Origin: a virus
Lineage: Duplodnaviria; Heunggongvirae; Uroviricota; Caudoviricetes
Virus record (IMG/VR): IMGVR_UViG_2695420809_000016
Location: 1 to 22,618 of that record
Direction: 5' to 3' (one strand)
DNA: 22,618 nucleotides
The translations under genes were made by a program, and so were the position numbers. Within the stretch, counting starts at the first letter, position 1, and each line of letters begins with the position of its first letter. Under the pieces are notes generated by a model that did no database searches, was not told where the DNA came from, and saw only the letters and a program-made list of their open reading frames with translations. Below are positions 2,465-19,366 of this stretch, piece by piece.

Positions 2465-3365
2465 CCGAGCCTCCGGTCACAACGCTGTATTCGGTACAGA
2501 AAGACGCCTGCGTATTGTTGAGCACGATGTCGGCCAGTGGTGCAGCCAGTTCGACACGCTGCACGCCTTCCACATGCAAAGCGGCATAAATGGCAGACAG
2601 ACGGATGTCACGCCCCAGCCGGTGCTGTGCCGTGATATACGCTTCCAGTTTTTTCACGGCGGCAGCGCGAATGGGTTCGCTTTCGGGACCAGGGTAAAGG
2701 TAAAGCGTGGCGTTTATCTGGTATTCAACAATGGCGGCAGACTGCACGGTCACGCGGTCGGCTACCGGCCTGACGTCCTCGCCATTAAGGGCATTACGCA
2801 CCACGGCCAGCAGGTCTTCGGATGCAACACCGTTATTTTCACGTGACAGCACAGAGATGGTGACGCAGGCCGGAGACGGACTGGTGACAGAAATATCCGC
2901 GACACGCCCGTCAGCACTGCGACCATGATACTGATAGGCTCCCACCGACCCGGCGACGCTTAAGCCCTCAAACGCCTGCTGAATACGCAGACGATAATCG
3001 GTGTCAGACTCCATCACTGCCGGTGTCGGCGGGATAGTCGAATCATCTGCCGGGGTGATAGTCAGGCGCGTGGTGTTGTAATTGGCACCAATCACATCAA
3101 GGTCATTACCGGCTGCACAGGCCAGCATTACCGCCCGTGCAGCCTCATTCACACGCTGACGCCAGATAAGCTCACGATAAGCATTTTCCTCCAGCAGTTT
3201 GACGAGAGGCTCGGATTCCAGCGTCAGGGTACGGGCGACCGCCTCCTGCTGGTCTTCCGGGTAAAGGGAAACCAGTGTCGCCTTGCGTTCGGCGAGAATG
3301 GTTTCAAAGTCCAGCTCCTCGACCACATCCGGTGCGGGTAGCTGGTTCAGGTCGATAATCGGCAT
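2457..3365 (-). CDS. J: Baseplate assembly protein gpJ
   Basis: 302 aa, the same length as P2 gpJ; lies between W and I. Confidence 0.9.
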   Translation of the reverse strand: MPIIDLNQLPAPDVVEELDFETILAERKATLVSLYPEDQQEAVARTLTLESEPLVKLLEENAYRELIWRQRVNEAARAVMLACAAGNDLDVIGANYNTTRLTITPADDSTIPPTPAVMESDTDYRLRIQQAFEGLSVAGSVGAYQYHGRSADGRVADISVTSPSPACVTISVLSRENNGVASEDLLAVVRNALNGEDVRPVADRVTVQSAAIVEYQINATLYLYPGPESEPIRAAAVKKLEAYITAQHRLGRDIRLSAIYAALHVEGVQRVELAAPLADIVLNNTQASFCTEYSVVTGGSDE

Positions 3366-3369
3366 GGTT

Positions 3370-3717
3370 TCAACTCACAGGGATGGTTAACGAAAGTGGC
3401 TGGCCGGTATCGTTGTGCCGGCCGGTTAACGTGACCGTCATTCGCCCGTCAAAACTGCGCTCAGTGGTGACGGATGACAGGGTGACGCGGGGTTCCCATT
3501 TCAGCACCGCCATGTAACAGGCGACCTTAATCTGCAACTCAAGCGCCGGGGTCTGCGGCTGGTCAATCATTGACGCCAGCAACGAGCCGTAATCACGACG
3601 CATCACCCGTGAGCCGACCGGTGTGCGCAGGATATCGCCGATACTCTGGCTGATATGCTCAAGGTCAGTGACCGTCAGGCCATCACTGCGATTCATTCCG
3701 AGATAACGCGCTGTCAT
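3370..3717 (-). CDS. W: Baseplate wedge protein gpW (gp25-like)
   Basis: 115 aa, same length as P2 gpW; position V-W-J. Confidence 0.9.
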   Translation of the reverse strand: MTARYLGMNRSDGLTVTDLEHISQSIGDILRTPVGSRVMRRDYGSLLASMIDQPQTPALELQIKVACYMAVLKWEPRVTLSSVTTERSFDGRMTVTLTGRHNDTGQPLSLTIPVS

Positions 3718-4355
3718 TTTGTCCCCTGTGTCCAGTTGTCTCCTGACTTAACACCACCGTGACCGTGGTCATCCACCTGAACGCCGTTAGAAGTGAATTT
3801 CCCGTCGGTATGCTCGATGTTGCCGTGCATCTTCCCGCCCTTCTGCACTTCCAGCGTGCCGGTAGTCAGCTTGTTGGTGCAGACCACCTCCGGTGTGTCC
3901 AGGGTGACGCGGGCTGACGCTTTCACCATGACCACCGGCACCGTGGCGGTAACAGAATCAGAAGCCGTCACGCTGGCCGTTTTAATTCCGCTTACCGTGA
4001 GTGCACTGGTTTCGGGTTCATACTCAATCACCGCCCCGTCAGGGAAACGGATATGCAGGGCATCCGCCGACGCAGACGGCGCGGGGTTATCGCCGGAATA
4101 AATCCCCGGCAGAACGAACGCCGTGTCGAGTTCACCGCCCACAGACAGAATCAGCACCTGTTCCCCCACGGAAGGTGCCCACCATGTGCGCGAACGTCCT
4201 GCGCGATGGGTCAGCCACTGAAGCCAGTCGGTGCACATGCCGCCGGTCTGCACGCGGCAGCGACCGGCGTTAAGGTCGGTTTCGACGATAATGCCGGTGC
4301 GAATCATGTTGCGCAGTGCGCGCGCGAGTTCCTGAATATTTGCGAGAGTGTTCAT
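3714..4355 (-). CDS. V: Baseplate spike / central fibre protein gpV
   Basis: The ORF-track start at 4373 is a TTG. The first ATG, at 4355..4353, gives MNTLANIQELARALRNMIR..., which I recognise as the gpV N-terminus (213 aa). Stop overlaps the W start. Confidence 0.85.
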   Translation of the reverse strand: MNTLANIQELARALRNMIRTGIIVETDLNAGRCRVQTGGMCTDWLQWLTHRAGRSRTWWAPSVGEQVLILSVGGELDTAFVLPGIYSGDNPAPSASADALHIRFPDGAVIEYEPETSALTVSGIKTASVTASDSVTATVPVVMVKASARVTLDTPEVVCTNKLTTGTLEVQKGGKMHGNIEHTDGKFTSNGVQVDDHGHGGVKSGDNWTQGTK

Positions 4356-4438
4356 GCATGTGAGATTGCACAATATATAAAAGTTATGCTATCTGGATTC
4401 ATTTGTAGAACTACCAGACAACATTCAAGGAGAGCGTA

Positions 4439-5224
4439 ATGGTCAGCTATAATGTGACTAATGTGTGGGGGCTAATCGTTTTTTTCCTTTGTAGCTTTGC
4501 AGTATTAGCATTTTTTAGCTTTGGTAAAAGTAACCTTATGAGGCTTATTGCACATTATTTCAATTTTGGATATTCAGACAAAAAATTAAAAAGACTGGAC
4601 CGCGAGTGGCGCGACATTCAACTATTTAAAATACTTAACGGAATCAATGTATCAGGCATCGAAGATGTGAGAATGATACAGCAGGGGCTGATTGATGGAA
4701 AACTAAAAACATCGTATTTTTTCCTTACTCGCATCTGGGGTGACATAACAAAAACACCACACATAATTAAAACAATAATCGTAATTCCGGCCAGTATTAT
4801 TTATATTCTCTTCGCATGCTACATACACAATGAACAATCCGCTATAGTAAGGGATGCCATAGGTATACCATATAAAAATATGATGTACTATGTTTATAGT
4901 GACAAAGTTCTTTTATCCTTCAAAAATAAAACAGTTGAATTTAATAAAACTTATAGCCTTGCCGATTGCAAGACCCTGCAAAACGTATTTATAAAAGACA
5001 CACTCCCTGAAATCGCCTGCAATAAGCTCTTACAGCTAAACGAGGAGGACTCCGAATGGTTAAGTCAGGAGATTAAAGATAATAACAGCCACAGAAAAAC
5101 ATTATTAATAATATCCCTAACCTATTTCATTTCAGGTCTGCTTATATTCCTGTCATATACAAAATTCCTTTACGCCAATAAGAAGGTTTTAGAATACAAA
5201 GCATCAAATAAAAACCACTCATAA
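4439..5224 (+). CDS. Hypothetical membrane protein (about 3 predicted TM helices), AT-rich cargo gene at the P2 orf30 position
   Basis: 261-aa ORF on the strand opposite to the flanking tail genes. Strong SD (AAGGAGAG) about 7 nt before the ATG. Hydrophobic segments GLIVFFLCSFAVLAFFSF, IIKTIIVIPASIIYILFACYI and LLIISLTYFISGLLIFLSY. AT-rich by eye compared with the backbone. Confidence 0.75.
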   Translation: MVSYNVTNVWGLIVFFLCSFAVLAFFSFGKSNLMRLIAHYFNFGYSDKKLKRLDREWRDIQLFKILNGINVSGIEDVRMIQQGLIDGKLKTSYFFLTRIWGDITKTPHIIKTIIVIPASIIYILFACYIHNEQSAIVRDAIGIPYKNMMYYVYSDKVLLSFKNKTVEFNKTYSLADCKTLQNVFIKDTLPEIACNKLLQLNEEDSEWLSQEIKDNNSHRKTLLIISLTYFISGLLIFLSYTKFLYANKKVLEYKASNKNHS

Positions 5225-5295: not shown

Positions 5296-5748
5296 CTAAC
5301 GCTCAAGGTGAGCCAGGATAATCTCTTCAATCATCTGCACATCCTCACCGGTAAAGCCGAGCAGAGGACGCGCCGGATAATCAATTTTCTTACCGTCTTT
5401 TCGGTTTTCTTCCGACAGACCGAACTGATGCACACTGGCGATTTTCGGTGACTTTCCGCCGTAAAACTCCATTGAGGCCTGTTCAGGGCTGGCGTGGATA
5501 TGCAAAAAACGACTGGTGATAAGTTTCGCAAACATTTTTCGCTTAACGCGACCGGTCTTTTTTCTGGCGCTCTGCTGCTGACGTGGCGCGTAGGGTGTGC
5601 CGTCCGGGGCTTTCTGTGCCATCACCCGACGCTGCTGACTCTGTCGCAGACGCTTCGCCAGTTCGGCACTCAGTCGCCGACGCCCTGACGGTGACAGCGA
5701 TTCAATCAGTCCGGTCAGCCGGTCTTCAAAACGCTTAAACTCATTCAT
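5296..5748 (-). CDS. S: Tail completion protein gpS
   Basis: 150 aa, same length as P2 gpS; start overlaps the stop of R. Confidence 0.9.
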   Translation of the reverse strand: MNEFKRFEDRLTGLIESLSPSGRRRLSAELAKRLRQSQQRRVMAQKAPDGTPYAPRQQQSARKKTGRVKRKMFAKLITSRFLHIHASPEQASMEFYGGKSPKIASVHQFGLSEENRKDGKKIDYPARPLLGFTGEDVQMIEEIILAHLER

Positions 5749-7950: not shown

Positions 7951-8154
7951 TTACTCCCACAGATTGACAGTTTCAGCCACGGGCGCGGTCTGAACGTCGG
8001 GCAGTTCGACGGCGGTGCCGTGCGGCAGCACCGCGCCCAGTTCAGCCAGTCCCGGATTTGCGGCGAGCACGGTTTCAACCACGCCCTCAGTGCGCCCGTA
8101 ATACCGGACACAAATGGCGTCGAGCGTGTCGCCCTGTAGCGCAAAGGTCTTCAT
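7951..8154 (-). CDS. X: Tail protein gpX (LysM-like)
   Basis: The ORF-track start is upstream; the ATG at 8154..8152 gives MKTFALQGDTLDAICVRYYGRTEGVVETVLAANPGLAELGAV... (67 aa), the expected gpX size. Overlaps the L stop. Confidence 0.85.
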   Translation of the reverse strand: MKTFALQGDTLDAICVRYYGRTEGVVETVLAANPGLAELGAVLPHGTAVELPDVQTAPVAETVNLWE

Positions 8155-8663
8155 CAGATTTGACTCACGATGCAGCGCGGCTTGTCCTGGATGCGCGCCA
8201 CCGCCCAGCGCATATCCCGCCACAGCTCATCAATGGTGCTGTCAATGCTGTCAGCCTTCTTGTCGCCTTTCGCACTGGCATCCACGCCGCGATAACGCTC
8301 ATAAAGCGACGCGGTCGCCATCGCACACACGGCGCGCTCGTAGTAAAAAACTTTGATGCTTTCACCGTCGATGTCGTCCGCCGGGACGTCCGCCAGACGC
8401 GTAAAACCGGCGGCAATTTTCTGTTCGCGATACTCGTACAGCTCCGCATTTGTCTCCGCCATGCCTGACTTGATAGCCTCACGCAGACGGGCGGGGGCGA
8501 CGGTCTGCTCAAGGCGCATACGTTCCCGGACGCGCTTCGGGTCGATATCGGGAAAAAAGAACGTGTTTTTAATCACCGGCTCGTCGCCTGCCGGTTGCGG
8601 GATGACCACCGTACCCTCACCGGACACGGGAGCCTCCTTTCGCGGAATAATCAGCGTCATCAT
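8154..8663 (-). CDS. L: Head completion / stabilisation protein gpL
   Basis: An internal ATG pair at 8663..8658 gives MMTLIIPRKEAPVSGEG..., 169 aa, the expected gpL size. Confidence 0.85.
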   Translation of the reverse strand: MMTLIIPRKEAPVSGEGTVVIPQPAGDEPVIKNTFFFPDIDPKRVRERMRLEQTVAPARLREAIKSGMAETNAELYEYREQKIAAGFTRLADVPADDIDGESIKVFYYERAVCAMATASLYERYRGVDASAKGDKKADSIDSTIDELWRDMRWAVARIQDKPRCIVSQI

Positions 8664-8762
8664 GACTACCTCTGAAAAGTCGGGCGGTGGACGCCGGTGC
8701 AGTGTCAGGTGATTCACCCTCACTGACCGGCGTGCCGCCCTGGCGCGGGGCGCATTCGGTTG

Positions 8763-9506
8763 TTAACTGGCTTTCTTTTTCGGGCGTCCACGTTTTGCCG
8801 GTGTCACGCTCCGGGTCTTACGCGGAGTGCGGGTGGCCGCTTTGGGCTGCGGCTCCGGCTTCGGTTTCAGCTCCCGCTCCAGTCGTTCAATCTCTTTTTT
8901 GACGCCTGCCTGACAGTCGAGCTGTGTCGCACGTTGCAGGTGAGCCAGCGCACCGGCGGCATCACCACCATCACGCAGAAACAGACCTGTGATTTTGTGC
9001 AGCTTTGCGCGCACTTCATCAGGCATGTCAGCCGTGGCGGTCAGTTCAAGGGTCTCCGTCAGCAGGCGGGTATCCACAGACTCACCGGCAGCGTGAGCAC
9101 GCATGGCCGCGAGCGCCACCTCCTCGGTGAACATGTACGGCGGGGTGCGGCGGTGTTTACCCGGCATGGTCAGACCGTACTTCAGGGCATAACGGGCAAT
9201 CTCCAGCGCACCGGCAATATCGCCGGTATCCAGACGCCACAGCATGACCGTCATCAGAATGTCATCCTGTGCACCTTTGCCCTGCTCCAGCACGCCGTTC
9301 ACCCACGGCAACCAGAACGGCAGCAGTTCGCGTTTTTTCGCGGCCTTCAGCTCTTTTGAATAAATCGCTTTCAGTGTGCGCTGGTCTGCGGCCAGCTTGA
9401 CCAGCATCTGCTCATAGACAGTTGCATGTCGCAGCGGGGCGGCTTCCCGCTGCGCGGTCATCGCTGCCGAGACCCGCATCATGTGGCGCTGTGCGGGACT
9501 CGTCAT
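8763..9506 (-). CDS. M: Terminase endonuclease (small) subunit gpM
   Basis: 247 aa with a basic C-terminal tail (TPRKTRSVTPAKRGRPKKKAS); lies between N and L. Confidence 0.9.
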   Translation of the reverse strand: MTSPAQRHMMRVSAAMTAQREAAPLRHATVYEQMLVKLAADQRTLKAIYSKELKAAKKRELLPFWLPWVNGVLEQGKGAQDDILMTVMLWRLDTGDIAGALEIARYALKYGLTMPGKHRRTPPYMFTEEVALAAMRAHAAGESVDTRLLTETLELTATADMPDEVRAKLHKITGLFLRDGGDAAGALAHLQRATQLDCQAGVKKEIERLERELKPKPEPQPKAATRTPRKTRSVTPAKRGRPKKKAS

Positions 9507-9509
9507 CGG

Positions 9510-10583
9510 TTACGCTCCCGGCTCTGCGGTCGCTTTAGCCGGTGTGGAGAAATCACCGACCTTAATTTTTTCCACCAGACAACCGGCGGCGTAGTCCTCC
9601 ACCACGTAATCAATGTTCATTGACTCGTAGTTCTCCACGCGGTCGAGTTTCGGGTTTTCCTCAATCACGCGGCGATGGCTGTCATCCATGTAGTAGATGG
9701 ACAGGTTTTCCAGCTTCGTGATGAGCATCGCATCCGCCGGGAAGTACGGGACGCGTACCGCTGGCAGGTTGCCGATGCGTTTCTGGCTGATGATGACGTC
9801 AGCGGCCAGCATTTCGCTGTTGTCCTGCTCCTTGTTGACGATGGGAAAATACTTGTCCGCCAGTAGCTGACGTCCCACAATCACCACAAGGTCAGGGTCT
9901 TCCTGATACCACGGCTCAATCAGGTTGTTGGTCGCATCCATCACCAGTGCATCAAGGCTGGCATAATCACCGCCCTTACCCACGCGGATGACCTCAGAGG
10001 TGGTGTGCCCTTCCTCGTCAGTGACCTTGCTCATCACGCGCGCCGGGGCTTCATTGCGGTATTTCTGCAGCCAGCCGACCGCCACATCCTGCAGCATCGG
10101 ATTGCTGCTGCGGTCAGAGGTTTCGGCACGCTTCACGCCGTTAAAACCGGCCATGATGAAATCAAGGGACTGGCGTTTGATAATGGCGTTACGGATACGG
10201 AGCTGGAAATCCTGATAACGCGCCCACAGGTCCAGCGTTTTGTAGCGGATATAAAAATCGAAGTTAATCTGGTCGCATTCGTACTTGTTTGACGCCAGCT
10301 TCGAGAAGTCCTTCGGCTGACGCTCGGTGCCACCGGCGGTGTCGGTGGTGCTGGCGATGGAGCCGGTGACACCGATGCCAATTTTTTCCCCTTTCATTTC
10401 GCTGACCGGCACAATGTTGATGCGGGTCAGGAAATCAGAGGACTCCTGCATGGTGTTCATCAGGGTCTGGGTGACCGACGGTTCAACGGTGAATTTTTTC
10501 GACACATCACCGGCGTCGATGCCGTTCAGTTCGGCAACACGGGACAGGTAGGCATTAAATTTAAAGCGGGTTTCCTGGCGCAT
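9510..10583 (-). CDS. N: Major capsid protein gpN
   Basis: 357 aa, same length as P2 gpN; position O-N-M. Confidence 0.95.
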   Translation of the reverse strand: MRQETRFKFNAYLSRVAELNGIDAGDVSKKFTVEPSVTQTLMNTMQESSDFLTRINIVPVSEMKGEKIGIGVTGSIASTTDTAGGTERQPKDFSKLASNKYECDQINFDFYIRYKTLDLWARYQDFQLRIRNAIIKRQSLDFIMAGFNGVKRAETSDRSSNPMLQDVAVGWLQKYRNEAPARVMSKVTDEEGHTTSEVIRVGKGGDYASLDALVMDATNNLIEPWYQEDPDLVVIVGRQLLADKYFPIVNKEQDNSEMLAADVIISQKRIGNLPAVRVPYFPADAMLITKLENLSIYYMDDSHRRVIEENPKLDRVENYESMNIDYVVEDYAAGCLVEKIKVGDFSTPAKATAEPGA

Positions 10584-10641
10584 AGTTTTTCCTGAAATTA
10601 AGGGTTAATCGTGAAGGTTTTTCCGGACTGACTGACGCCGG

Positions 10642-11496
10642 TCAGCAGTTCGTCATCAGGGCGTCACCGCCACCGCCGGTGGCCTTGCTGCGGCGCTGCT
10701 GGGTCAGACTTTCGGTGTGGTCGAGGCTGTTTTTCAGGCGGGTGAATGCCTGGCTGGTTTCATCCGCCCTGTCAGTCACCTCCTGCTTAAGTGCGGAAAA
10801 GGCGGTTTCCATCTCAGCGAGGCGCTGCTCAGTGGCGCTCAGTTTTTCCTGCACATGTTCAGCAACAGCGGTCACCGCTTCATGCACGTCATTCAGACGG
10901 GCGTCATCGCTGGCCTGTTTGCGGCCAAAAATGGATTTCACCTTTTCGGTCAGGGCGGTGAACACGGTTTCAGGCAGGTCTTCAAATTCCAGCTCAACGG
11001 GCGTTGCCACTGAAATCAGGTTTTCAGGGCTTAATTTGAAGCGGTTCAGGGGGTTGTGTTTTGCCGTGCGGCAGAATTCCAGGTATTCCGTGCCGAGGCT
11101 TGCCGGGTCATCGGTGACGGCCAGACCCACCAGATAACATTTGCCTGTATTGGCAAAGTTCGGCTGAATTTCCATTGAGGTATAGACCTTCTGCGCGGCC
11201 TTGTTCATCGCGATAAGGTCATCGGTCGGGGTGATTTTCGCAAACAGCGCCCATTTGCCTTTCAGCGCCGAATCATCGTCAATTTTTTCGGCCTTCAGTT
11301 CGGCCACATCGCCATAACGTTTAAAAATGCCGTCAGGCAGGATGCCGCGCAGATGTTCCAGGTTAATGCGGCAACCATAGACACGCGGGTCAAAGGTTTC
11401 GGCCATTTCCTGAATATCCTGCGCACTGATGACACGCCCGTCACAGGTGTCACCCTCAACGCCGATACGAAAGAATTTTGAGACTTTTTTTGCCAT
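10642..11496 (-). CDS. O: Capsid scaffolding protein gpO
   Basis: The ATG at 11496..11494 (MAKKVSKFFRIGVEGDTCDGR...) is preceded by AGGA; 284 aa, the expected gpO size. The ORF-track start is further upstream. Confidence 0.9.
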   Translation of the reverse strand: MAKKVSKFFRIGVEGDTCDGRVISAQDIQEMAETFDPRVYGCRINLEHLRGILPDGIFKRYGDVAELKAEKIDDDSALKGKWALFAKITPTDDLIAMNKAAQKVYTSMEIQPNFANTGKCYLVGLAVTDDPASLGTEYLEFCRTAKHNPLNRFKLSPENLISVATPVELEFEDLPETVFTALTEKVKSIFGRKQASDDARLNDVHEAVTAVAEHVQEKLSATEQRLAEMETAFSALKQEVTDRADETSQAFTRLKNSLDHTESLTQQRRSKATGGGGDALMTNC

Positions 11497-11669
11497 TGTC
11501 AGGAGTCCTGAATAGTGATTAGAGGAGTCACATGTCGGCATCAGTTTCCCGACGATGCGCATCCTCCGCCATCAGTCCCGGATGGCTTATCACTGACACA
11601 ACAGCACCTTAGCGAATCGCGGGGCGCGACTCAGTAGCCTTGCCGTGTATTCATCACGGCGAGGTATTC
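11497..11669. promoter_or_regulatory. Divergent late-promoter region for O (minus) and P (plus)
   Basis: Intergenic region between divergent head operons, as in P2. Contains the dyad GTCGG-N10-CCGAC at about 11534..11553. I did not find a canonical Ogr TGT-N12-ACA site by eye. Confidence 0.4.
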
Positions 11670-13442
11670 ATGACCATCACCACAGACACCACTCTTTTAC
11701 ACGACCCGCGTCGTCAGGCGGCGCTGCTGTACTGGCAGGGATTTTCCGTGCCGCAGATTGCCGCCATGTTGCAGATGAAACGCCCGACGGTGCAGAGCTG
11801 GAAACAGCGCGACGGCTGGGACAGCGTTGCCCCCATCAGCCGTGTCGAAATGAGTCTGGAAGCGCGACTGACCCAGCTCATCATCAAACCGCAGAAAACC
11901 GGCGGTGACTTCAAGGAAATTGACCTGCTCGGACGCCAGATTGAACGACTGGCGCGGGTCAACCGCTACAGTCAGACCGGCAACGAGGCAGACCTTAATC
12001 CGAACGTCGCTAACCGCAACAAAGGCGGGCGTCGCAAACCGAAAAAGAATTTTTTCAGTGACGAAGCCATCGAAAAGCTGGAGCAGATTTTCTTTGAGCA
12101 GTCTTTCGACTATCAGTTGCACTGGTATCGCGCCGGGCTTGAGCACCGCATCCGCGATATCCTGAAATCCCGCCAGATTGGCGCGACGTTTTATTTTTCC
12201 CGCGAGGCGCTGCTGCGCGCCCTGAAAACCGGCCATAACCAGATTTTTCTGTCGGCCAGTAAAACGCAGGCGTATGTGTTCCGCGAATACATCATCGCCT
12301 TTGCCCGTCTGGTTGACGTTGACCTGACCGGTGACCCGATTGTCCTGGGCAATAACGGCGCAAAACTAATTTTTCTCGGCACCAACTCCAACACCGCACA
12401 GAGCCATAACGGCGACCTGTACGTCGACGAGATTTTCTGGATCCCGAATTTTCAGGTACTGCGTAAGGTGGCATCAGGTATGGCCTCACAGAGTCACCTG
12501 CGCTCGACCTATTTCTCCACCCCGTCCACGCTGGCGCACGACGCCTACCCGTTCTGGTCGGGTGAACTGTTCAACCGGGGACGCGCCAGCGCCGTCGAAC
12601 GCGTGGAAATCGACGTCAGTCATAACGCCCTTGCCGGTGGGCTTCTCTGTGCGGACGGCCAGTGGCGGCAGATTGTCACCATTGAGGACGCGCTGAAAGG
12701 CGGCTGCACGCTGTTCGACATTGAGCAGCTCAAACGTGAAAACAGCGCCGACGATTTTAAAAACCTGTTCATGTGTGAATTTGTTGACGACAAGGCGTCG
12801 GTGTTCCCGTTCGAGGAGCTGCAACGCTGCATGGTCGACACGCTGGAAGAATGGGAAGACTATGCGCCGTTTGCCGCGAATCCGTTCGGCTCCCGCCCGG
12901 TATGGATTGGTTACGACCCGTCACACCGTGGCGACAGTGCCGGATGCGTGGTGCTGGCACCGCCGGTGGTGGCCGGAGGTAAATTCAGAATACTTGAGCG
13001 TCACCAGTGGAAAGGCATGGACTTTGCCACCCAGGCTGAATCCATCCGCAAACTCACCGAAAAATACAACGTCGAATACATCGGAATTGATGCCACCGGC
13101 CTCGGTGTCGGCGTGTTCCAGCTCGTGCGCTCGTTCTATCCCGCCGCGCGCGACATCCGCTACACGCCGGAAATGAAAACCGCAATGGTGCTCAAGGCAA
13201 AAGACGTCATCCGCCGTGGCTGTCTGGAATATGACGTCAGCGCCACCGACATCACCAGCTCGTTTATGGCTATCCGCAAGACCATGACCAGCAGCGGACG
13301 CAGCGCCACCTATGAGGCCAGCCGCAGCGAGGAAGCCAGCCACGCCGACCTCGCCTGGGCGACCATGCACGCCCTGTTAAATGAGCCACTCACCGCGGGT
13401 ATCAGCACTCCGCTGACATCCACCATTCTGGAGTTTTACTGA
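11670..13442 (+). CDS. P: Terminase ATPase (large) subunit gpP
   Basis: ATG at 11670 preceded by GAGG. Product starts MTITTDTTLLHDPRRQAALLYWQGFSVPQIAAM...; 590 aa, the expected gpP size. Confidence 0.95.
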   Translation: MTITTDTTLLHDPRRQAALLYWQGFSVPQIAAMLQMKRPTVQSWKQRDGWDSVAPISRVEMSLEARLTQLIIKPQKTGGDFKEIDLLGRQIERLARVNRYSQTGNEADLNPNVANRNKGGRRKPKKNFFSDEAIEKLEQIFFEQSFDYQLHWYRAGLEHRIRDILKSRQIGATFYFSREALLRALKTGHNQIFLSASKTQAYVFREYIIAFARLVDVDLTGDPIVLGNNGAKLIFLGTNSNTAQSHNGDLYVDEIFWIPNFQVLRKVASGMASQSHLRSTYFSTPSTLAHDAYPFWSGELFNRGRASAVERVEIDVSHNALAGGLLCADGQWRQIVTIEDALKGGCTLFDIEQLKRENSADDFKNLFMCEFVDDKASVFPFEELQRCMVDTLEEWEDYAPFAANPFGSRPVWIGYDPSHRGDSAGCVVLAPPVVAGGKFRILERHQWKGMDFATQAESIRKLTEKYNVEYIGIDATGLGVGVFQLVRSFYPAARDIRYTPEMKTAMVLKAKDVIRRGCLEYDVSATDITSSFMAIRKTMTSSGRSATYEASRSEEASHADLAWATMHALLNEPLTAGISTPLTSTILEFY

Positions 13443-14476
13443 TGAGCAAGAAAAAAGGGAAAACACCGCGACCAGCGGCAAAAAAAATGACCGCCAGCGC
13501 CCCGAAAATGGAGGCATTCACCTTTGGTGAACCGGTGCCGGTACTCGACCGCCGTGACATTCTGGATTACGTCGAGTGCATCAGTAACGGCAGATGGTAT
13601 GAGCCGCCGGTCAGCTTTACCGGTCTGGCAAAAAGCCTGCGTGCTGCCGTACATCACAGCTCACCGATTTACGTCAAACGTAATATTCTGGCTTCAACGT
13701 TTATTCCGCACCCGTGGCTTTCCCAGCAGGATTTCAGCCGCTTTGTGCTGGATTTTCTGGTGTTCGGTAATGCGTTTCTGGAAAAGCGTTACAGCACCAC
13801 TGGTAAGGTCATCAGACTGGAAACCTCACCGGCAAAATATACCCGCCGTGGCGTGGAAGAGGATGTTTACTGGTGGGTGCCGTCCTTCAACGAGCCGACA
13901 CCTTTCGCGCCCGGCTCCGTGTTTCACCTGCTGGAGCCGGATATTAATCAGGAGCTGTACGGTCTGCCGGAATATCTCAGCGCCCTTAACTCTGCCTGGC
14001 TGAATGAGTCGGCCACGCTGTTTCGCCGCAAGTATTACGAAAACGGCGCGCATGCCGGATACATCATGTACGTCACCGATGCCGTGCAGGACCGCAACGA
14101 TATCGAAATGCTTCGCGAAAACATGGTGAAGTCGAAAGGCCGCAATAACTTTAAAAACCTGTTTCTCTATGCCCCACAGGGGAAAGCCGACGGCATTAAA
14201 ATTATCCCGCTCAGTGAAGTGGCGACGAAGGACGATTTTTTTAATATCAAAAAAGCCAGCGCCGCTGACCTGCTGGACGCGCACCGCATCCCCTTTCAGT
14301 TGATGGGCGGCAAGCCGGAGAACGTCGGGTCGCTGGGTGATATTGAGAAAGTGGCAAAGGTCTTTGTCCGCAATGAGCTTATCCCGCTACAGGACAGGAT
14401 TCGGGAAATAAACGGCTGGCTCGGTCAGGAAGTCATCCGCTTTAAAAACTACTCTCTGGACACTGACAACGACTGA
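13442..14476 (+). CDS. Q: Portal protein gpQ
   Basis: 344 aa, same length as P2 gpQ; start overlaps the P stop; followed by a terminator and cos. Confidence 0.95.
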   Translation: MSKKKGKTPRPAAKKMTASAPKMEAFTFGEPVPVLDRRDILDYVECISNGRWYEPPVSFTGLAKSLRAAVHHSSPIYVKRNILASTFIPHPWLSQQDFSRFVLDFLVFGNAFLEKRYSTTGKVIRLETSPAKYTRRGVEEDVYWWVPSFNEPTPFAPGSVFHLLEPDINQELYGLPEYLSALNSAWLNESATLFRRKYYENGAHAGYIMYVTDAVQDRNDIEMLRENMVKSKGRNNFKNLFLYAPQGKADGIKIIPLSEVATKDDFFNIKKASAADLLDAHRIPFQLMGGKPENVGSLGDIEKVAKVFVRNELIPLQDRIREINGWLGQEVIRFKNYSLDTDND

Positions 14477-14645: not shown

Positions 14646-14664
14646 GTGCTTTCCCCGCCTCGCC
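14646..14664. other. cos site (19-nt cohesive-end sequence, P2 type)
   Basis: The sequence GTGCTTTCCCCGCCTCGCC is the reverse complement of the P2 cohesive end GGCGAGGCGGGGAAAGCAC as I recall it, and it sits where expected, just beyond Q. Confidence 0.8.
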
Positions 14665-14810
14665 CGCCCGCTTCGTGGGGCTGTTTTAATGCAGTTGCAT
14701 GAACACTCCAAGAGCACGCCAGCACTGGCGGCGCTCACACGTAACGGGGAAGGAAAACGCATGCGATTCGATGCAGTACTGCATGCAGAGCTGAAAAAGG
14801 CAGAAAATAC

Positions 14811-14850
14811 TGAAAAAACGCATAAAAAACCGGCATTCAGGTTACCGGTT
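14811..14850 (-). terminator. Candidate minus-strand rho-independent terminator between the cargo island and cos
   Basis: AACCGG / CCGGTT stem (14828..14833 and 14845..14850). On the minus strand it is followed by a T-rich run (complement of TGAAAAAACGCATAAAAA). Confidence 0.45.
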
Positions 14851-14978
14851 TGAGTCAGCTTCATTGTGGTTACTTGTCGCGCAATGCGCCAATAATACTA
14901 GTAAGGCAACAAGTGGCAACAATCAGCAAAAAAACCGTTGTCCACGGATTCTCATAAACGAGAGATAACATATTGATA

Positions 14979-15005
14979 TTGATCCTTTTATTGGTACATT
15001 ATAAT
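14979..15005 (+). promoter_or_regulatory. Candidate sigma70 promoter in the AT-rich island
   Basis: Perfect TATAAT at 15000..15005 with TTGATC 15 bp upstream (TTGATA 21 bp upstream). The spacing is not ideal, so this is tentative. Confidence 0.3.
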
Positions 15006-15372
15006 GCGATATTATCGGTCTTTAACAACTTGGCTGAGTTCTATCTTACCAATTTTCGTGATAAGCATTTAATCAATTACGTAGTATGGTTAAAGGCACA
15101 CAAAGGAGAAAAATATGCGAATGCATTTTTTAGACAACCGACTTCCAAAAATCTTTTCAACGTAATACAAAAAAATTACAAACATCTATCAATTACAAAT
15201 TAACAAATATCAACACTACCAGCTTAATTGCAGCAAATATCAGGAGATAACATCACTACAACAATAAATCAAAAACTGTTAGATTTGGCCAGAAATGCCA
15301 ACTCCACACATAACTTCACGCAGATACATAGTTCATAATTAAACAATTTATCGACTTGGAGCGAATAGAATA

Positions 15373-16377
15373 ATGTCAAAAGAAAACACACCAATGGAAC
15401 CAAGCATAAATATAAAGGCAGACTTCACTGAGATATTAAATTCATCGCCAAAGGGCGTTAAGTATATATTCAATATTCTCTTCGGAAAAAAACACGCAGA
15501 GGCCGAGAGAAGGATTAGGCTATCGAACGCTCAAGATTATGCAGATATGAAAAAAATCATATCTGGAGAAGCAACATATGATAATGAGAAGAACCAAATA
15601 ACACCTTCTAACCAAGACATTAAGTCATTAATTGTTAGCGCATTGCAGGATGAGGAAATTACAAATCTTATAGGCTGCATCAGAAGCGCCTCAGAATACA
15701 TTAAAGATGATACTGATAACGATGGTGGTCCATCCCAAGACTTTATTAACAGATGGCGAAGCGATGCGAAACTAATCAGTGAACAGTCTATCCAGTACGT
15801 TTGGGGGCGAATTCTAGCGGAAGAAATAAACACACCTCAAACTGTAAGCGTAAGAACCCTTGATGTAATAAAAAACCTATCAAAAGAAGAGGCTGAATAT
15901 TTCTCAGAGGCACTTGACTTTATATTTTACGATTCTTATTTGATTGATAATGGAGATACCAAAAATCCATTCATCTCACCAGAAAAAGGTCATAAATTGA
16001 GAGATGCAGGATTAATAGTTACTTTTACTCCTGGAATGTATCGCTCCGGGACATGGGATACACAACGTTTTGTTCTCAGCGGAGCCACCATACCAAAAGT
16101 ATTCTACATCAGCAGTTCTGATAAGTATTACTTTATCGATGCAGGCAAAATAACTGACGACCCTAAAATTCTGGTATGGGAGTTAACAAATGCCGGCAAA
16201 GAATTATATGAAATTCTAAAGAAAGATCATAAAACCAAAGAAGAATCAGTAAAAAAAATTATTGACTGGATATTAAATAGCACTAAAGCTTCTGAGTTTT
16301 ACTATGGAGATATTGTTAAGCATTCAGACAATAGTCTGTCAGTTGAGAACTTACTGACTATAAGCAGAAATAGATAG
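15373..16377 (+). CDS. Hypothetical acidic protein (334 aa), cargo gene at the cos–A junction (P2 tin/old hotspot position); candidate anti-phage or accessory function
   Basis: Long ATG-initiated ORF in an AT-rich island, opposite in orientation to the early operon, with GGAG upstream. No Walker A, HNH or obvious PD-(D/E)xK motif seen by eye. I do not recognise the family. Confidence 0.8.
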   Translation: MSKENTPMEPSINIKADFTEILNSSPKGVKYIFNILFGKKHAEAERRIRLSNAQDYADMKKIISGEATYDNEKNQITPSNQDIKSLIVSALQDEEITNLIGCIRSASEYIKDDTDNDGGPSQDFINRWRSDAKLISEQSIQYVWGRILAEEINTPQTVSVRTLDVIKNLSKEEAEYFSEALDFIFYDSYLIDNGDTKNPFISPEKGHKLRDAGLIVTFTPGMYRSGTWDTQRFVLSGATIPKVFYISSSDKYYFIDAGKITDDPKILVWELTNAGKELYEILKKDHKTKEESVKKIIDWILNSTKASEFYYGDIVKHSDNSLSVENLLTISRNR

Positions 16378-16682
16378 AACATTAAAACAAGACCCCATAT
16401 CTAATCAGTATGCGAACAGGCAAGAACATCCGTTTTTGTCTGTTCCTTTCAAAACAACTACCCGCATCTCCATAATACTAAAAGATATTTTCCTTTTATT
16501 CAAACCCACAATAATGTTTACGCTCAATAATAAAAAACATCAGAATATTTTTTAACTCCTACACAGCTTGTTTCTCAATCCCGTTGTGTATATCATCAGG
16601 ACCAAGACATTTCACACCAGTGTTATCCATCACTTGTTCAGAAATCATCGCTACTTTTATGACAGAGTAGTGACTCTATATA

Positions 16683-16889
16683 CTAAGAATTACGACCACC
16701 CTTATTATCCTGACTTTCATCAATAAAGAAAATAATACCGCCAGCTTTATCTCTTGGTGAATAAGGAGGGCCAGTGCTAACCAGATAACTGCCTATATGA
16801 ATTAACTTGTTGTCATTAGCTCCACTCCATTTCTGTTGAATACCCCGGCCACTCATCAGCGACCGCATAACTGAATTTTTTCTCGCCAT
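16683..16889 (-). CDS. Small hypothetical ORF overlapping the 3' end of gene A (P2 orf91 position)
   Basis: 68-aa ORF downstream of and partly overlapping A (A stop at 16816). Position corresponds to orf91 of P2, but I do not recognise the sequence; it may be spurious. Confidence 0.3.
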   Translation of the reverse strand: MARKNSVMRSLMSGRGIQQKWSGANDNKLIHIGSYLVSTGPPYSPRDKAGGIIFFIDESQDNKGGRNS

Positions 16890-19101
16890 ATATCACCGTT
16901 GCACCTCGCGTCAGCGCCTCAAGCTCCCATCGCTGCGGTCTGATACCGTTCTGAGCAAGGTCAACGCGGATAGGGATGATTTGCAATCGTTCAGACCTGG
17001 TCAGTCTGGCCGATGGTGCAATTTCATGTGGTTTTAACGGGCTTCCGTTTCTCTGCTGACGATTTGGTGTTCTCAGCCCGTATTTTAATGCGCCCCTGAG
17101 CGCCCTCACGACCTCCGGGTCATTCCATTCGATAACACCGTCATCAACCAGATTAAGCACTGCTGCGGCGTGCTCAGAAGGCGTGGGAGCCGGTAACGAA
17201 GTATTACCACCGGTGAGCTTTCCACAGTTATTGACAGGACTCCGAGGCGCGGCGATGCCGCTTTTTAAAGTCAAAGGCTCAACGACCGGAACTTTCGGCA
17301 CAATGCGCCAGTCCGTCGTTCTGGTGATATGAATATGACGCGCGCCGAGATGCGGCGCGTAAATGCCGACCACTCTCTCGACTTCTTCCTCGTACTCGTT
17401 AACGTCATCCGACGGGCTACGGGCAACCCTGACAGTCTGACAATCGCGCGGGACATTTGCCCCACCCTGCGCGCTGATATACAACGCAAAATCACCACTG
17501 TCTGCGGCAGCGCGAGCAGCCTCGACGCGTTCGTCAAACTCATCAGCAATACTGACGCCGCGAGGCAATTTGCGTAGTTCACGGTAAGCCCCCATTGTCG
17601 GCAGGCCAACCGTTTTAAATTGCGGAATTCGCCACGTTGACGCCCATGCGGTAACAGCCGCAGCAGTATCTTTCAGCGGCCTGCCGGTATCATTATCGAG
17701 CTGACCATCCAGTGCGTAGCCATCGATGTTTTTTGAGATGTATTTTGCGATATACCCCGCAGCACCGCCCCGGTTAAGATGTTTTGCCTGAAAACGGTTT
17801 CGCGCGGCTCCTCTTTCGTCGCCATCCTCTTTGAGCGCATAGCGACGCATGATTTCGATAATCTGGTTACGCTGGCGTGGATTACAAAAAAGCATCATAT
17901 GCCAGTGCGGCGTTCCGTCGTGGTGTGGCTCGACGACACGCAAACCGTAGACCTGTAAATCATTATCCTTGAATGCCGTGCGCATCAGGCTCCAGATATG
18001 GCAGAGATAACGCTGCGCATCCTTTGGATTAAATGCCTCATCGTTCCAGCCGTGATTTAGCTGGACGGTTTTACTTTCGCCTTTTCCGACCTGACGTGTC
18101 GGGTGATACTTTGACGGCGCGGTAAGCGTGATAAACATCCCCACATCACCCTCTGCGGCGGCGTAACGCTCAATACCGGCAATGGTGTTCATCAGCTCCA
18201 TCCGGCGAATTTCAGGATTAGAAATACTGCCCATCACCTTACTGATAAGGTCGATGCGTTCGCCGGTTTCCCTGTTTTCAAGGTCACACGATTTAAGAAA
18301 TTCCAGATTTGCCTGGCGGCGTGCACGCACATCACGAATGGCATGTTTACTGGCATAAGGAGAACGGCCTTTATTGACCTCCCCGACAGCAATCAGTAAC
18401 GCCTCATGCCAGCGCATACGCTGGCCTTTAAGCTGATGGGTCCACCACTCATCGTTAAACAGACGGGCAATGGCAGAATATGCCTGCCTCGTGGTCATCT
18501 GCCCTTTACGGTATTTTTTCCAGTAGAGAGGGGAAATATTGAAAGCACGTGCAGCACCAGCAACATGACCATAGAGGTGAGCCTGCGCCTCATCCGTAAA
18601 CAGCGATTCTTTTTCGCCATGCGCATCCACCCAGGCATCGCAGAGTTCCTCATACATCATGAAAAGCTGCGATGAGATACGGGCGGCAAACTTTTTCAGC
18701 TCCTTATCATTCATCCCCGGCAGACGCGCATAATGGTCACGTTCTGCCAGAAACAGCAACGACGCGTCGGTGTTCATTTCATGGCGCTGATTCACGCGCT
18801 CAATGCGCGGCCATAAACGACGCTGAAAAGTGGATGTGAGGAAATAAAACCCGTGCACCGGGCTTTTATTGCGCCGGATGTAGTCATAGCGTGAAGTAAA
18901 CAGCGAGCGCAAAAAGTAAGGCAGACGGTTAATCGTGGATAAAACACCTTGCACCTGACGCATCTCGTCACGTGTAAGGGGTCTTTCGCGCCCGACGGCC
19001 TCGCGTGGCGCGTTCCATGCATAAGCACCGGTAAACGCCTTACCGGTGCCTGCGGCAAATGCTGACGGAGGGACAAAACGCCCGGAGGCTTTAACGGCCA
19101 T
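16816..19101 (-). CDS. A: Replication initiation protein gpA (rolling-circle initiator)
   Basis: The ATG at 19101..19099 gives MAVKASGRFVPPSAFAAGTGK...; 761 aa, the expected gpA size. The ORF-track start at 19143 is a TTG. Last gene of the early operon. Confidence 0.95.
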   Translation of the reverse strand: MAVKASGRFVPPSAFAAGTGKAFTGAYAWNAPREAVGRERPLTRDEMRQVQGVLSTINRLPYFLRSLFTSRYDYIRRNKSPVHGFYFLTSTFQRRLWPRIERVNQRHEMNTDASLLFLAERDHYARLPGMNDKELKKFAARISSQLFMMYEELCDAWVDAHGEKESLFTDEAQAHLYGHVAGAARAFNISPLYWKKYRKGQMTTRQAYSAIARLFNDEWWTHQLKGQRMRWHEALLIAVGEVNKGRSPYASKHAIRDVRARRQANLEFLKSCDLENRETGERIDLISKVMGSISNPEIRRMELMNTIAGIERYAAAEGDVGMFITLTAPSKYHPTRQVGKGESKTVQLNHGWNDEAFNPKDAQRYLCHIWSLMRTAFKDNDLQVYGLRVVEPHHDGTPHWHMMLFCNPRQRNQIIEIMRRYALKEDGDERGAARNRFQAKHLNRGGAAGYIAKYISKNIDGYALDGQLDNDTGRPLKDTAAAVTAWASTWRIPQFKTVGLPTMGAYRELRKLPRGVSIADEFDERVEAARAAADSGDFALYISAQGGANVPRDCQTVRVARSPSDDVNEYEEEVERVVGIYAPHLGARHIHITRTTDWRIVPKVPVVEPLTLKSGIAAPRSPVNNCGKLTGGNTSLPAPTPSEHAAAVLNLVDDGVIEWNDPEVVRALRGALKYGLRTPNRQQRNGSPLKPHEIAPSARLTRSERLQIIPIRVDLAQNGIRPQRWELEALTRGATVIYGEKKFSYAVADEWPGYSTEMEWS

Positions 19102-19366
19102 GTGAGCCAAAAGCCTCTGAACAACGCTTGCTGAGTTGCTCAACCTGCGCGTTTAAATCAGCAAAAGACTTTGCGCTTCCGGTAAGGATATCGTGATGCA
19201 CCAGACCGGAAACGAGCTGGCTTAATTTCGGGTAATAACCAACCACCGCCAGCCATTCCTGACCGGCGTTTTTACCGCTTTCAGCTCTCTTTTTCTCGTG
19301 GAGAATAAACTGAAAGCTGTCACTGGTAACAACATAACGTTCGCCAATTTCAATACGAATACTCAT
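19091..19366 (-). CDS. Hypothetical early protein (P2 orf83 position)
   Basis: 91-aa ORF immediately upstream of A in the early operon, overlapping the A start by about 11 nt. Confidence 0.6.
   Translation of the reverse strand: MSIRIEIGERYVVTSDSFQFILHEKKRAESGKNAGQEWLAVVGYYPKLSQLVSGLVHHDILTGSAKSFADLNAQVEQLSKRCSEAFGSHGR

What the first reader, a model, noticed from the sequence alone, without database searches (positions are those of the whole stretch)
15373..16377. The hotspot protein is acidic and lacks recognisable ATPase or nuclease motifs
Reading the translation, the protein is rich in D, E and K, has no hydrophobic helices, no Walker A (GxxxxGK[ST]), no HNH and no obvious PD-(D/E)xK or HEPN Rx4-6H signature. 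That argues against the common effector classes (Old-like ATPase-nucleases, Gabija, AbiE-type toxins). It is more consistent with a sensor or inhibitor that acts by binding, as Tin does against the T-even ssDNA-binding protein, or with a fold that sequence alone cannot reveal.
Basis: seen in the sequence. Interest (0 to 1): 0.6.

Follow-up and report, generated by a model that had tools for sequence, protein, structure and literature searches.

The report
DUF2806 abortive-infection-type gene in P2 hotspot
The gene is real and lacks any known enzyme motif, but it is not an orphan: it belongs to the DUF2806 family, related to Abi-alpha, which includes proteins shown to stop phages by killing the infected cell, and here it fills the known defence slot of a P2-like Salmonella prophage.

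Summary
ORF 15373-16377 (+) encodes a 334-aa soluble, mildly acidic protein (pI 5.2, net -9). It has no Walker A, HEPN, conserved HNH or PD-(D/E)xK motif and no transmembrane helix.

The Tin-like binder interpretation is only partly supported. The protein is a clear member of Pfam DUF2806 (PF10987, E=7e-19), a large family of about 300-350-aa stand-alone proteins. Some members also give weak matches to Pfam Abi_alpha.

Two relatives have been tested experimentally. Belisama is a DUF2806 integron cassette of V. cholerae. Abi-alpha is a prophage gene of E. faecalis. Both give abortive infection with culture lysis, and Belisama is toxic when over-expressed.

The gene is the only conserved ORF in an AT-rich cargo between portal gene Q and replication gene A, next to cos. 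This is the published P2 old/tin defence hotspot. It is under purifying selection (dN/dS 0.08-0.18). Orthologues occupy the same slot in Salmonella, Enterobacter and eight viral contigs.

The AlphaFold model (pLDDT 86) resembles no solved enzyme fold. The only matches are weak ones to winged-helix domains.

Best reading: a single-gene, Belisama/Abi-alpha-type abortive-infection protein with a variable sensor half. It is a new member of a known kind, and the family's mechanism is still unknown.

The parts
15373..16377 (+). DUF2806-family gene, 334 aa plus stop. It is the only conserved ORF of the AT-rich cargo.
   Evidence: ORF list. Pfam PF10987 E=7.2e-19. dN/dS 0.08-0.18. The exact protein is in NCBI as a DUF2806 domain-containing protein. 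GC is 32-37% against about 55% in the backbone.
15421..15693 (+). N-terminal module, aa 17-107. Short helix 19-24, long helix 27-64, small beta-hairpin 68-77, long helix 83-107. It begins with a cationic amphipathic stretch (PKGxKYIFNILFGKK) and lies largely outside the part of the protein that matches the Pfam model (aa 96-183).
   Evidence: AlphaFold model from the 73-sequence alignment, pLDDT 67-93 in this region. Conserved positions are A53, Q54, D58, I62, E95, N98. Amphipathic moment is 0.55-0.57 and is conserved across the family, but is no higher than that of core helices.
15694..15735 (+). Acidic loop, aa 108-121 (EYIKDDTDNDGGPS). Its sequence varies but its negative charge is conserved.
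   Evidence: No secondary structure in either model. Family median net charge -5 and pI about 4.05 for the aligned aa 105-122.
15736..15921 (+). Conserved four-helix core, aa 122-183 (DFINRWRxxAKxIS...QxxWGRILAEE...PxSxSxRTLDVIKNLSKEEAxxF). This is the family signature and the stretch that weakly matches Abi_alpha in other members.
   Evidence: Most conserved blocks of the alignments: R161 invariant in A1; R127, W144, L148, E151, P155, S159, T162, L163, N168, A174, F177 at 90% or more. The Pfam DUF2806 match covers aa 96-183. Abi_alpha profile positions 44-91 align to this core in other members. pLDDT 92-96.
15928..16374 (+). Variable C-terminal alpha/beta domain, aa 186-334. It carries a MarR-like winged-helix signature (LRDAGLI ... 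WELTNAGKELY) around a much enlarged beta 'wing'. Proposed specificity or sensor module.
16414..16445 (+). Terminator-like hairpin 37 nt after the stop codon: 14-bp stem, 4-nt loop, followed by CUUUC.
   Evidence: RNA fold -19.5 kcal/mol, z=-4.6 against shuffles. A hairpin at the equivalent place in the Enterobacter locus is followed by UUUUC.
14973..15002 (+). Sigma-70-like promoter TTGATA-16-TACATT with an extended -10 TG. It is the only promoter-like site on the + strand upstream of the gene and would give a leader of about 370 nt.
   Evidence: Consensus scan. Conserved in the Enterobacter loci. Homology to E. coli P2-like prophages that carry other cargo ends at about 15006, just after the -10. 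Function is inferred, not shown.
14646..14664 (-). P2-type cos core, the 19-nt cohesive-end sequence GGCGAGGCGGGGAAAGCAC. It marks the cos-proximal hotspot.
   Evidence: Exact match, 0 expected by chance. The identity of the 19-mer as P2 cos is from my own knowledge. Rousset et al. place the hotspot next to cos, between gpQ and gpA (PMC9122126).
13442..14476 (+). Portal protein gene (P2 Q), the left anchor of the hotspot.
   Evidence: Pfam Phage_portal. About 95% nucleotide identity to Peduovirus portal genes.
16816..19143 (-). Replication protein gene (P2 A), the right anchor of the hotspot.
   Evidence: Pfam Phage_GPA E=4e-124. Homology to other Peduovirus genomes resumes at about 16840.

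Best explanation
The ORF encodes a stand-alone anti-phage protein of the DUF2806 family, related to Abi-alpha. It is carried as exchangeable cargo in the cos-proximal defence hotspot, between portal gene Q and replication gene A, of a P2-like (Peduovirus) prophage of Salmonella enterica.

Proposed mechanism, inferred by homology and anatomy and not shown for this protein:
1. The lysogen makes the protein constitutively, from a promoter next to cos.
2. The poorly conserved C-terminal winged-helix-like domain recognises a component or consequence of infection by a competing phage.
3. This releases the activity of the highly conserved helical core and N-terminal helical hairpin. That activity is non-enzymatic, or at least uses no known catalytic fold.
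4. The result is premature lysis or death of the infected cell, that is, abortive infection, which protects the lysogenic population.

Shown here: family membership, genomic position, purifying selection, absence of a partner gene, and absence of known catalytic folds. Inferred: anti-phage function, the abortive outcome, and the division into sensor and effector.
For: Family:
- Pfam DUF2806 E=7.2e-19, above the curated cut-off. All 55 first-round homologues carry PF10987.
- The family profile finds 8,305 cluster representatives (1,480 at E<1e-30). The best 150 listed are mostly 290-355 aa.
- 16 of 41 members also hit Pfam Abi_alpha, best E=7.8e-5. The hits looked at individually were below its cut-off.

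Function of relatives:
- Belisama is described as having a DUF2806 domain with detectable homology to Abi-alpha. It protects V. cholerae, gives unrecoverable culture lysis at high MOI with no phage amplification, and is toxic on induction (bioRxiv 10.1101/2024.07.02.601686).
- Abi-alpha (EF2833, 272 aa, prophage-encoded) drops plaquing below 1e-8, kills infected cells and advances lysis by about 10 min. Its authors note similarity to PF10987 (PMC6356687).
- An Abi-alpha-family protein is the most abundant prophage protein in uninfected phiNM1 lysogens (bioRxiv 10.1101/2025.10.23.684294).

Position:
- The gene lies between Q and A beside cos, the published P2 old/tin hotspot (PMC9122126).
- Other Peduovirus genomes carry DUF4238, retron Ec48, Fic/VbhT, DUF3850 or DUF4209 genes at the same slot.
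- GC is 32-37% against about 55% in the backbone.
- Orthologues of 72-99% identity sit in the same slot in Salmonella, E. cloacae, E. hormaechei and eight IMG/VR contigs. In L026 the cargo is 96% identical on a backbone that is about 80% identical.
- An Achromobacter homologue lies next to a SIR2-HerA pair.

Stand-alone gene:
- No neighbouring ORF recurs across 15 diverse loci.
- There is a terminator-like hairpin right after the stop codon.
- No conserved small ORF lies in the 440-bp downstream spacer.

Sensor and effector split:
- Conservation peaks in aa 121-180 and is lowest in aa 186-334.
- DUF4393 (Abi-alpha) genes are predicted targets of programmed inversions (odds ratio 23), alongside specificity determinants such as PilV and tail fibres (PMC9881135).

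Real gene: dN/dS 0.08-0.18.
Against: - No experiment exists for this protein or for its Enterobacteriaceae subfamily.
- I could not obtain the Belisama sequence, so direct similarity to the one validated DUF2806 protein was not measured.
- The link to Abi_alpha is weak at the sequence level. The hits looked at individually scored 15-18 bits against a cut-off of 29. An E. coli P2-hotspot protein labelled Abi_alpha by Rousset et al. did not align with the family profile.
- The protein matches only the first half of the Pfam model (profile positions 15-101 of 221), so its C-terminal half has diverged.
- PADLOC-DB 2.0.0 has no model that recognises it.
- A distant DUF2806 gene is present on about 300 plasmid records, mostly conjugative plasmids of about 33 kb; the one examined is IncX4. 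The family may therefore have roles other than defence.
- The sensor and effector assignment rests on conservation patterns only. The mechanism of cell death is unknown for the whole family.
Confidence: 0.6

Rival explanations
1. Tin-like binder. The protein protects without killing the cell, by binding and sequestering a phage protein or nucleic acid stoichiometrically, for example through its winged-helix-like domain or its acidic loop.
For: No catalytic motif or fold was detected. The only fold resemblances are to winged-helix binding domains. An acidic loop is conserved in charge, as in DNA-mimic or decoy proteins. High constitutive abundance of an Abi-alpha-family protein in a lysogen would suit a stoichiometric binder.
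Against: Both experimentally studied relatives give abortive phenotypes. Infected cells die or lyse early, no phage is produced at high MOI, and Belisama is toxic when over-expressed. A pure inhibitor of a phage protein should let infected cells survive and should not be toxic. The best-conserved part of the family is the core, not a surface expected to track diverse phage targets.
Confidence: 0.15
2. Cryptic enzyme. The conserved helical core (R127, E151, R161, D164, N168, E173 and others) is the active site of a so far undescribed catalytic fold, for example one acting on a nucleotide, lipid or cell-wall precursor. Its product causes the lysis.
For: A cluster of nearly invariant polar and charged residues lies within 60 residues. 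Relatives are toxic and cause rapid lysis. No structural neighbour is known, so a new fold cannot be excluded.
Against: The core is a small four-helix unit of about 60 aa with HTH-like spacing. There is no metal- or nucleotide-binding motif and no His or Cys among the conserved positions. Several conserved residues are hydrophobic (W144, L148, L163, F177, A174) and probably structural. Nothing here tests catalysis.
Confidence: 0.12
3. Not a defence gene. It is a moron with another role, for example a winged-helix regulator of host or prophage genes, or a maintenance or addiction function of mobile elements, as its presence on many conjugative plasmids might suggest.
Against: The slot is a documented defence hotspot where most tested cargo is defensive (PMC9122126; PMC13586616). 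The protein is acidic overall, which is unusual for a DNA-binding regulator. The putative recognition helix is not conserved. A DUF2806 protein has been shown to be anti-phage. Cargo is exchanged between diverged backbones, as defence genes are.
Confidence: 0.1

Closest known systems
Belisama (V. cholerae N16961 superintegron cassette; Darracq et al., bioRxiv 10.1101/2024.07.02.601686)
   Same: A single gene described as carrying a DUF2806 domain. It is carried as small mobile cargo and reported in 70 genera of Pseudomonadota. The expected phenotype is abortive infection, with culture lysis at high MOI, no phage amplification and toxicity on over-expression.
   Different: The carrier differs: an integron cassette against a P2 prophage hotspot. 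The window protein matches only the N-terminal half of the Pfam model and has its own diverged C-terminal domain. The phage range is unknown.
Abi-alpha (EF2833 of E. faecalis V583 prophage 6; Pfam Abi_alpha PF14337, formerly DUF4393; PMC6356687)
   Same: Prophage-encoded, a single protein of about 270-330 aa with no recognisable catalytic domain. Its authors reported similarity to PF10987. It gives abortive infection with premature lysis. The family's conserved core aligns with Abi_alpha profile positions about 44-91.
   Different: It belongs to a different Pfam family. The window protein itself does not hit Abi_alpha; only 16 of 41 relatives do, and the hits looked at individually were below the cut-off. 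The host is Gram-positive and the target is a Picovirinae phage.
P2 old and tin (the reference cargo of the same hotspot)
   Same: Same genomic slot between A and Q next to cos. They are expressed from the prophage to exclude other phages (PMC9122126).
   Different: No sequence or domain relationship. Old is an ATPase-TOPRIM nuclease and Tin targets the T-even ssDNA-binding protein (my own knowledge of the P2 literature). The window protein has no ATPase or TOPRIM domain.
DUF4238 single-gene system of P2-like phages (Rousset et al. 2022)
   Same: Another single-gene, domain-of-unknown-function cargo of the same hotspot. It was validated against T7 and is present at the same slot in phage pro483.
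   Different: An unrelated domain. In pro483 the gene is on the opposite strand.

Membership tests
Pfam DUF2806 (PF10987) | Score against the Pfam HMM above the curated gathering cut-off (24.5 bits) | tested here: met
   68.9 bits, E=7.2e-19, aa 96-183 matching profile positions 15-101 of 221. All 41 aligned homologues also match.
Pfam DUF2806 (PF10987) | Full-length domain coverage, including the C-terminal half of the model | tested here: not met
   Only profile positions 15-101 are matched, while distant homologues match positions 1-217. The C-terminal half still aligns with those homologues through the DAGL and LTxAGxEL motifs. It is therefore a diverged version of the domain, not a replacement.
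Belisama anti-phage system | Protein sequence similarity to the V. cholerae Belisama protein (the authors defined homologues by blastp) | not testable with these tools
   The sequence and locus tag are absent from the text and supplement held. No V. cholerae protein was among the named hits listed in the two homologue searches. What I have is the authors' statement that Belisama has a DUF2806 domain.
Belisama anti-phage system | Single-gene system with no obligatory partner | tested here: met
   It is the only conserved ORF in the cargo. No neighbour recurs across 15 diverse loci. A terminator-like hairpin follows the stop codon.
Belisama anti-phage system | Anti-phage activity with an abortive-infection phenotype | not testable with these tools
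   This needs plaque assays and infection time courses.
Pfam Abi_alpha (PF14337) / Abi-alpha | Score against the Abi_alpha HMM above its cut-off (29 bits) | tested here: not met
   The window protein gave no hit even at E<=10. 16 of 41 relatives hit, best E=7.8e-5, and the hits looked at individually scored 15-18 bits, below the cut-off. This supports a superfamily-level relationship only.
P2-like prophage Q-A defence hotspot cargo (Rousset et al. 2022) | Located between the portal gene gpQ and the replication gene gpA, adjacent to cos, in a P2-like element | tested here: met
   Portal 13442-14476, cos 14646-14664, gene 15373-16377, gpA 16816-19143. The flanks are 93-96% identical to Peduovirus genomes that carry other cargo.
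   No motif, no domain hit and no structural match.

The most novel reading that the evidence does not exclude
The DUF2806/Abi-alpha superfamily may represent a mechanistically new class of single-polypeptide abortive-infection proteins that kill without any known enzymatic or pore-forming module. In this reading, a variable winged-helix-like domain with a giant wing senses the invader. A small, conserved helical core, together with an N-terminal helical hairpin and an acidic, possibly auto-inhibitory loop, then either hijacks the lysis clock (holin or membrane potential) or carries a new catalytic fold. The P2-hotspot copy would give an E. coli/Salmonella-tractable model for solving the mechanism.
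Probability: 0.2. Interest if true: 0.65.

Novelty: new member of a known kind. Interest (0 to 1): 0.33.

Why it matters
It assigns a probable function to an AT-rich gene that public databases label only 'DUF2806 domain-containing protein', on 247 contigs of Salmonella and related Enterobacteriaceae. It also adds DUF2806 to the list of cargo types in the P2 Q-A defence hotspot.

The wider value is as a model. How DUF2806 and Abi-alpha proteins cause premature lysis is unknown. This copy sits in a genetically tractable host-phage system with a large phage collection. Escape mutants and suppressors could therefore identify both the trigger and the cellular target.

As a discovery it is modest. 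The family, its anti-phage activity and the hotspot have all been described already.

Tried and rejected
- Weak one-off hits. PIN-TPR-GreABC (E=0.095), fungal Ago_N_1 (E=0.007), PDC-S39 (E=0.004) and PDC-M35B do not recur among relatives, so I treat them as noise.
- Obtaining Belisama's sequence failed. It is not in the paper text or the held supplement. It was not among the named hits listed in the homologue searches. The genome-contig scan returned only 8 loci, none from Vibrio.
- Comparison with an E. coli P2-hotspot protein that Rousset et al. label Abi_alpha. hhalign found no relationship beyond a 17-residue 'ELTxxG' stretch, and the current Pfam does not call that protein Abi_alpha.
- Membrane-active N-terminal amphipathic helix. 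The amphipathic moment is conserved but is no higher than for buried core helices. In the better model the segment is part of a long helical hairpin. Inconclusive, and not used as evidence.
- Shufflon-type variation of the C-terminal half, suggested by the DUF4393 enrichment in programmed inversions. No meaningful inverted or direct repeats lie around the gene.
- Partner gene or antitoxin. No small ORF in the upstream leader or the 440-bp downstream spacer is conserved in the Enterobacter loci. No neighbour recurs.
- Known RNA in the leader. No Rfam family matches anywhere in the window.
- Presence in complete E. coli genomes. No nucleotide match to the gene even in distant mode, although a few draft E. 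coli assemblies carry the protein.

Full report
WHAT IS THERE

The window is a P2-like (Peduovirus) prophage. Terminase gene P is at 11640-13442 (+) and portal gene Q at 13442-14476 (+). The exact 19-nt P2 cos core is at 14646-14664, and replication gene A is at 16816-19143 (-). I identify the 19-mer as P2 cos from my own knowledge.

Between cos and A, GC content falls from about 55% to 32-37%. The only ORF longer than 100 aa in this stretch is 15373-16377 (+), 334 aa. Flanking DNA is 93-96% identical to Peduovirus genomes of Yersinia, Salmonella and E. coli. At the same place those genomes carry quite different genes: DUF4238, retron Ec48, Fic/VbhT, DUF3850 and DUF4209. Homology breaks at 14700-15006 on the left and resumes near 16840 on the right. 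This is the cos-proximal Q-A hotspot that holds old and tin in P2, described by Rousset et al. (PMC9122126).

CHECK OF THE OBSERVATION

- pI is 5.20 and net charge is -9. D, E and K make up 8.1%, 7.5% and 9.0% of residues.
- There is no Walker A and no Rx4-6H.
- The highest 19-residue hydropathy mean is 0.93, so no transmembrane helix is predicted.
- Loose HNH and PD-(D/E)xK patterns match only in non-conserved positions.
- Acidity is a property of the whole family. Median pI is 5.22 over 73 diverse members. A loop aligned to aa 105-122 varies in sequence but has a median charge of -5.

The gene is functional, not decaying. dN/dS is 0.08-0.09 against orthologues with 76-77% nucleotide identity and 0.15-0.18 between close pairs. 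The identical protein is on 247 public contigs.

WHAT IT IS

The protein is not an orphan. It matches Pfam DUF2806 (PF10987) at E=7.2e-19, and NCBI already names it 'DUF2806 domain-containing protein'.

A profile of 41 homologues finds 8,305 cluster representatives in 1.8 billion proteins, 1,480 of them at E<1e-30. The best 150 listed are mostly 290-355 aa. Named members come from Proteobacteria, Bacteroidota (Mucilaginibacter) and Clostridia.

Sixteen of the 41 homologues also match Pfam Abi_alpha, best E=7.8e-5. The hits looked at individually were below its cut-off, and they fall in the conserved core. PADLOC-DB 2.0.0 and PHROGs do not recognise the protein.

ANATOMY

With a 73-sequence alignment, AlphaFold gives a confident model with pLDDT 86 and pTM 0.78. 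It shows four parts:
- an N-terminal helical hairpin (helices 27-64 and 83-107, with a small beta-hairpin between them), largely outside the stretch that matches the Pfam model (aa 96-183);
- an unstructured acidic loop (aa 108-121);
- a four-helix core (aa 122-183), the most conserved part of the family, with R161 invariant in the 41-sequence alignment and R127, W144, L148, E151, P155, S159, T162, L163, N168, A174 and F177 at 90% or more;
- a well-predicted but poorly conserved alpha/beta domain (aa 186-334).

The C-terminal domain carries the pattern LxDAGLI ... (about 50-residue beta insert) ... LTxAGxELY. I read this as a MarR-type winged-helix signature with a much enlarged wing. That reading is my own inference from the sequence.

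CONTEXT ELSEWHERE

Orthologues of 72-99% identity occupy the same Q-A slot in Salmonella enterica, Enterobacter cloacae, E. hormaechei and eight IMG/VR P2-like contigs. In L026 the cargo is 96% identical while terminase, portal and gpA are only about 80% identical. In L032 gpA is only 37% identical. The gene therefore moves between diverged backbones.

More distant homologues sit in other settings:
- next to a SIR2-HerA pair in Achromobacter;
- among resolvases in P. putida;
- in non-P2 viral contigs;
- alone in the C. perfringens chromosome.

No neighbouring ORF recurs across 15 diverse loci. A strong hairpin follows the stop codon here and in Enterobacter. Neither the upstream leader nor the 440-bp downstream spacer holds a conserved small ORF. 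It is a stand-alone gene.

HOW IT PROBABLY WORKS

Two relatives have been tested.

Belisama is a V. cholerae integron cassette that its authors describe as a DUF2806 protein with homology to Abi-alpha. It protects against phage, gives strong unrecoverable culture lysis at high MOI without phage amplification, and needs reduced induction because it is toxic (bioRxiv 10.1101/2024.07.02.601686).

Abi-alpha of E. faecalis prophage 6 drops plaquing below 1e-8, kills infected cells and advances lysis by about 10 minutes. Its authors noted similarity to PF10987 (PMC6356687).

Two further observations bear on the family. An Abi-alpha-family protein is the most abundant prophage protein in uninfected phiNM1 lysogens (bioRxiv 10.1101/2025.10.23.684294). 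DUF4393 genes are predicted targets of programmed inversions (odds ratio 23), listed alongside specificity determinants such as PilV and tail fibres (PMC9881135).

Together with the conservation pattern, this suggests the following. The protein is a constitutively made, single-polypeptide abortive-infection factor. Its variable C-terminal domain senses infection, and its conserved core and N-terminal hairpin deliver the lethal or lytic effect. All of this is inference for the window protein. How the cell is killed is unknown for the entire family.

It does not fit the abortive and toxic phenotypes of the relatives. I give it about 0.15. I give a cryptic new enzyme about 0.12 and a non-defence role about 0.10.

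EXPRESSION SIGNALS

The only sigma-70-like site on the + strand upstream of the gene is TTGATA-16-TACATT with an extended -10, at 14973-15002. It is conserved in Enterobacter. It lies exactly where homology to E. coli prophages with other cargo stops. The cargo therefore seems to be placed behind a backbone promoter, which gives a leader of about 370 nt. No Rfam family matches anywhere in the window. A GGAG lies 11 nt upstream of the ATG.

LIMITS

- I could not obtain the Belisama sequence, so membership of that named system rests on the shared Pfam domain only.
- The Abi_alpha link is weak at the sequence level.
- An E. coli hotspot protein labelled Abi_alpha by Rousset et al. did not align with this family.
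- The idea of a membrane-active N-terminal amphipathic helix was examined and left inconclusive.
- There are no shufflon repeats at this locus.

VERDICT

The gene is a real, selected, mobile cargo gene of the P2 defence hotspot. It belongs to the DUF2806 family, related to Abi-alpha. It is a new member of a known kind, and the known kind still lacks a mechanism. Interest is modest at 0.33.

Noticed in passing
window 4439-5224 (+): A second AT-rich island (GC about 33%) holds a 261-aa ORF. It lies between baseplate gene V (3714-4373, -) and tail-completion gene S (5296-5748, -), on the opposite strand to both. That is the P2 'orf30' position. It has no Pfam, PADLOC or NCBIfam match. It may be another accessory or defence moron of unknown function.
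   Followed up: partly
window 14870-14971 (-): A 33-aa hydrophobic ORF (MLSLVYENPWTTVFLLIVATCCLTSIIGALRDK) lies between cos and the cargo. It is conserved at 73-100% in Salmonella, Enterobacter and IMG/VR P2-like elements and was called as a gene in L015. The DNA that holds it is also conserved in E. coli P2-like prophages with other cargo, so it is backbone and not a partner of the DUF2806 gene. It looks like a small membrane peptide, possibly a type I toxin-like gene. It has no family match.
   Followed up: partly
window 14973-15006 (+): The left recombination boundary of the cargo, relative to E. coli P2-like prophages, falls just after the -10 of a conserved promoter-like site. This suggests that different cargos are plugged in behind a shared backbone promoter. 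In other Peduovirus genomes (pro483, vB_YpM_22) homology already ends at 14700-14800.
   Followed up: partly
window 15003-15170 (+): The first 170 nt or so of the leader are conserved at roughly 75-80% (judged by eye from the alignment) between the Salmonella and Enterobacter cargos, and no ORF is retained. The window then has an insertion of about 100 nt. It could be a regulatory 5' UTR. No Rfam family matches.
   Followed up: no
window 16683-16889 (-), overlapping the 3' end of gene A: The C-terminal part of a 68-aa ORF resembles a 56-aa ORF called just downstream of gpA in Enterobacter loci (shared pattern HIxxG...DK...FxxDE). Here it has no start codon of its own and is reachable only from an ATG inside gene A in another frame. 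It may be a remnant of the small gene that follows A in P2-like phages.
   Followed up: no
L024 (NZ_MT929275.1, IncX4 plasmid) 2638-3342: A distant DUF2806 gene (31% identity over the core) is found on about 300 plasmid records of E. coli, Salmonella and Klebsiella, mostly conjugative plasmids of about 33 kb. In the IncX4 plasmid examined it lies immediately upstream of mcr-1. This explains why DUF2806 appears in papers on mcr-1.
   Followed up: partly
Rousset et al. 2022 supplementary table (PMC9122126, file 6): The E. coli Q-A hotspot catalogue lists an arrangement 'RVT_1 + hypothetical + DUF2806' (NZ_AIAR01000007, WP_001591815). It also lists a two-gene arrangement, 'DUF6358 (2-TM) | Abi_alpha', with 14 occurrences. 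DUF2806 and Abi-alpha-like genes were therefore already seen in this hotspot. Nothing in the main-text passages I read says they were among the systems tested.
   Followed up: partly
L006 (Achromobacter denitrificans CP036344.1) 8001-13017: The DUF2806 homologue P0026 lies in a small island with a VbhA-like antitoxin gene and a SIR2 plus HerA (DUF87) pair. This is a typical defence-island context.
   Followed up: no
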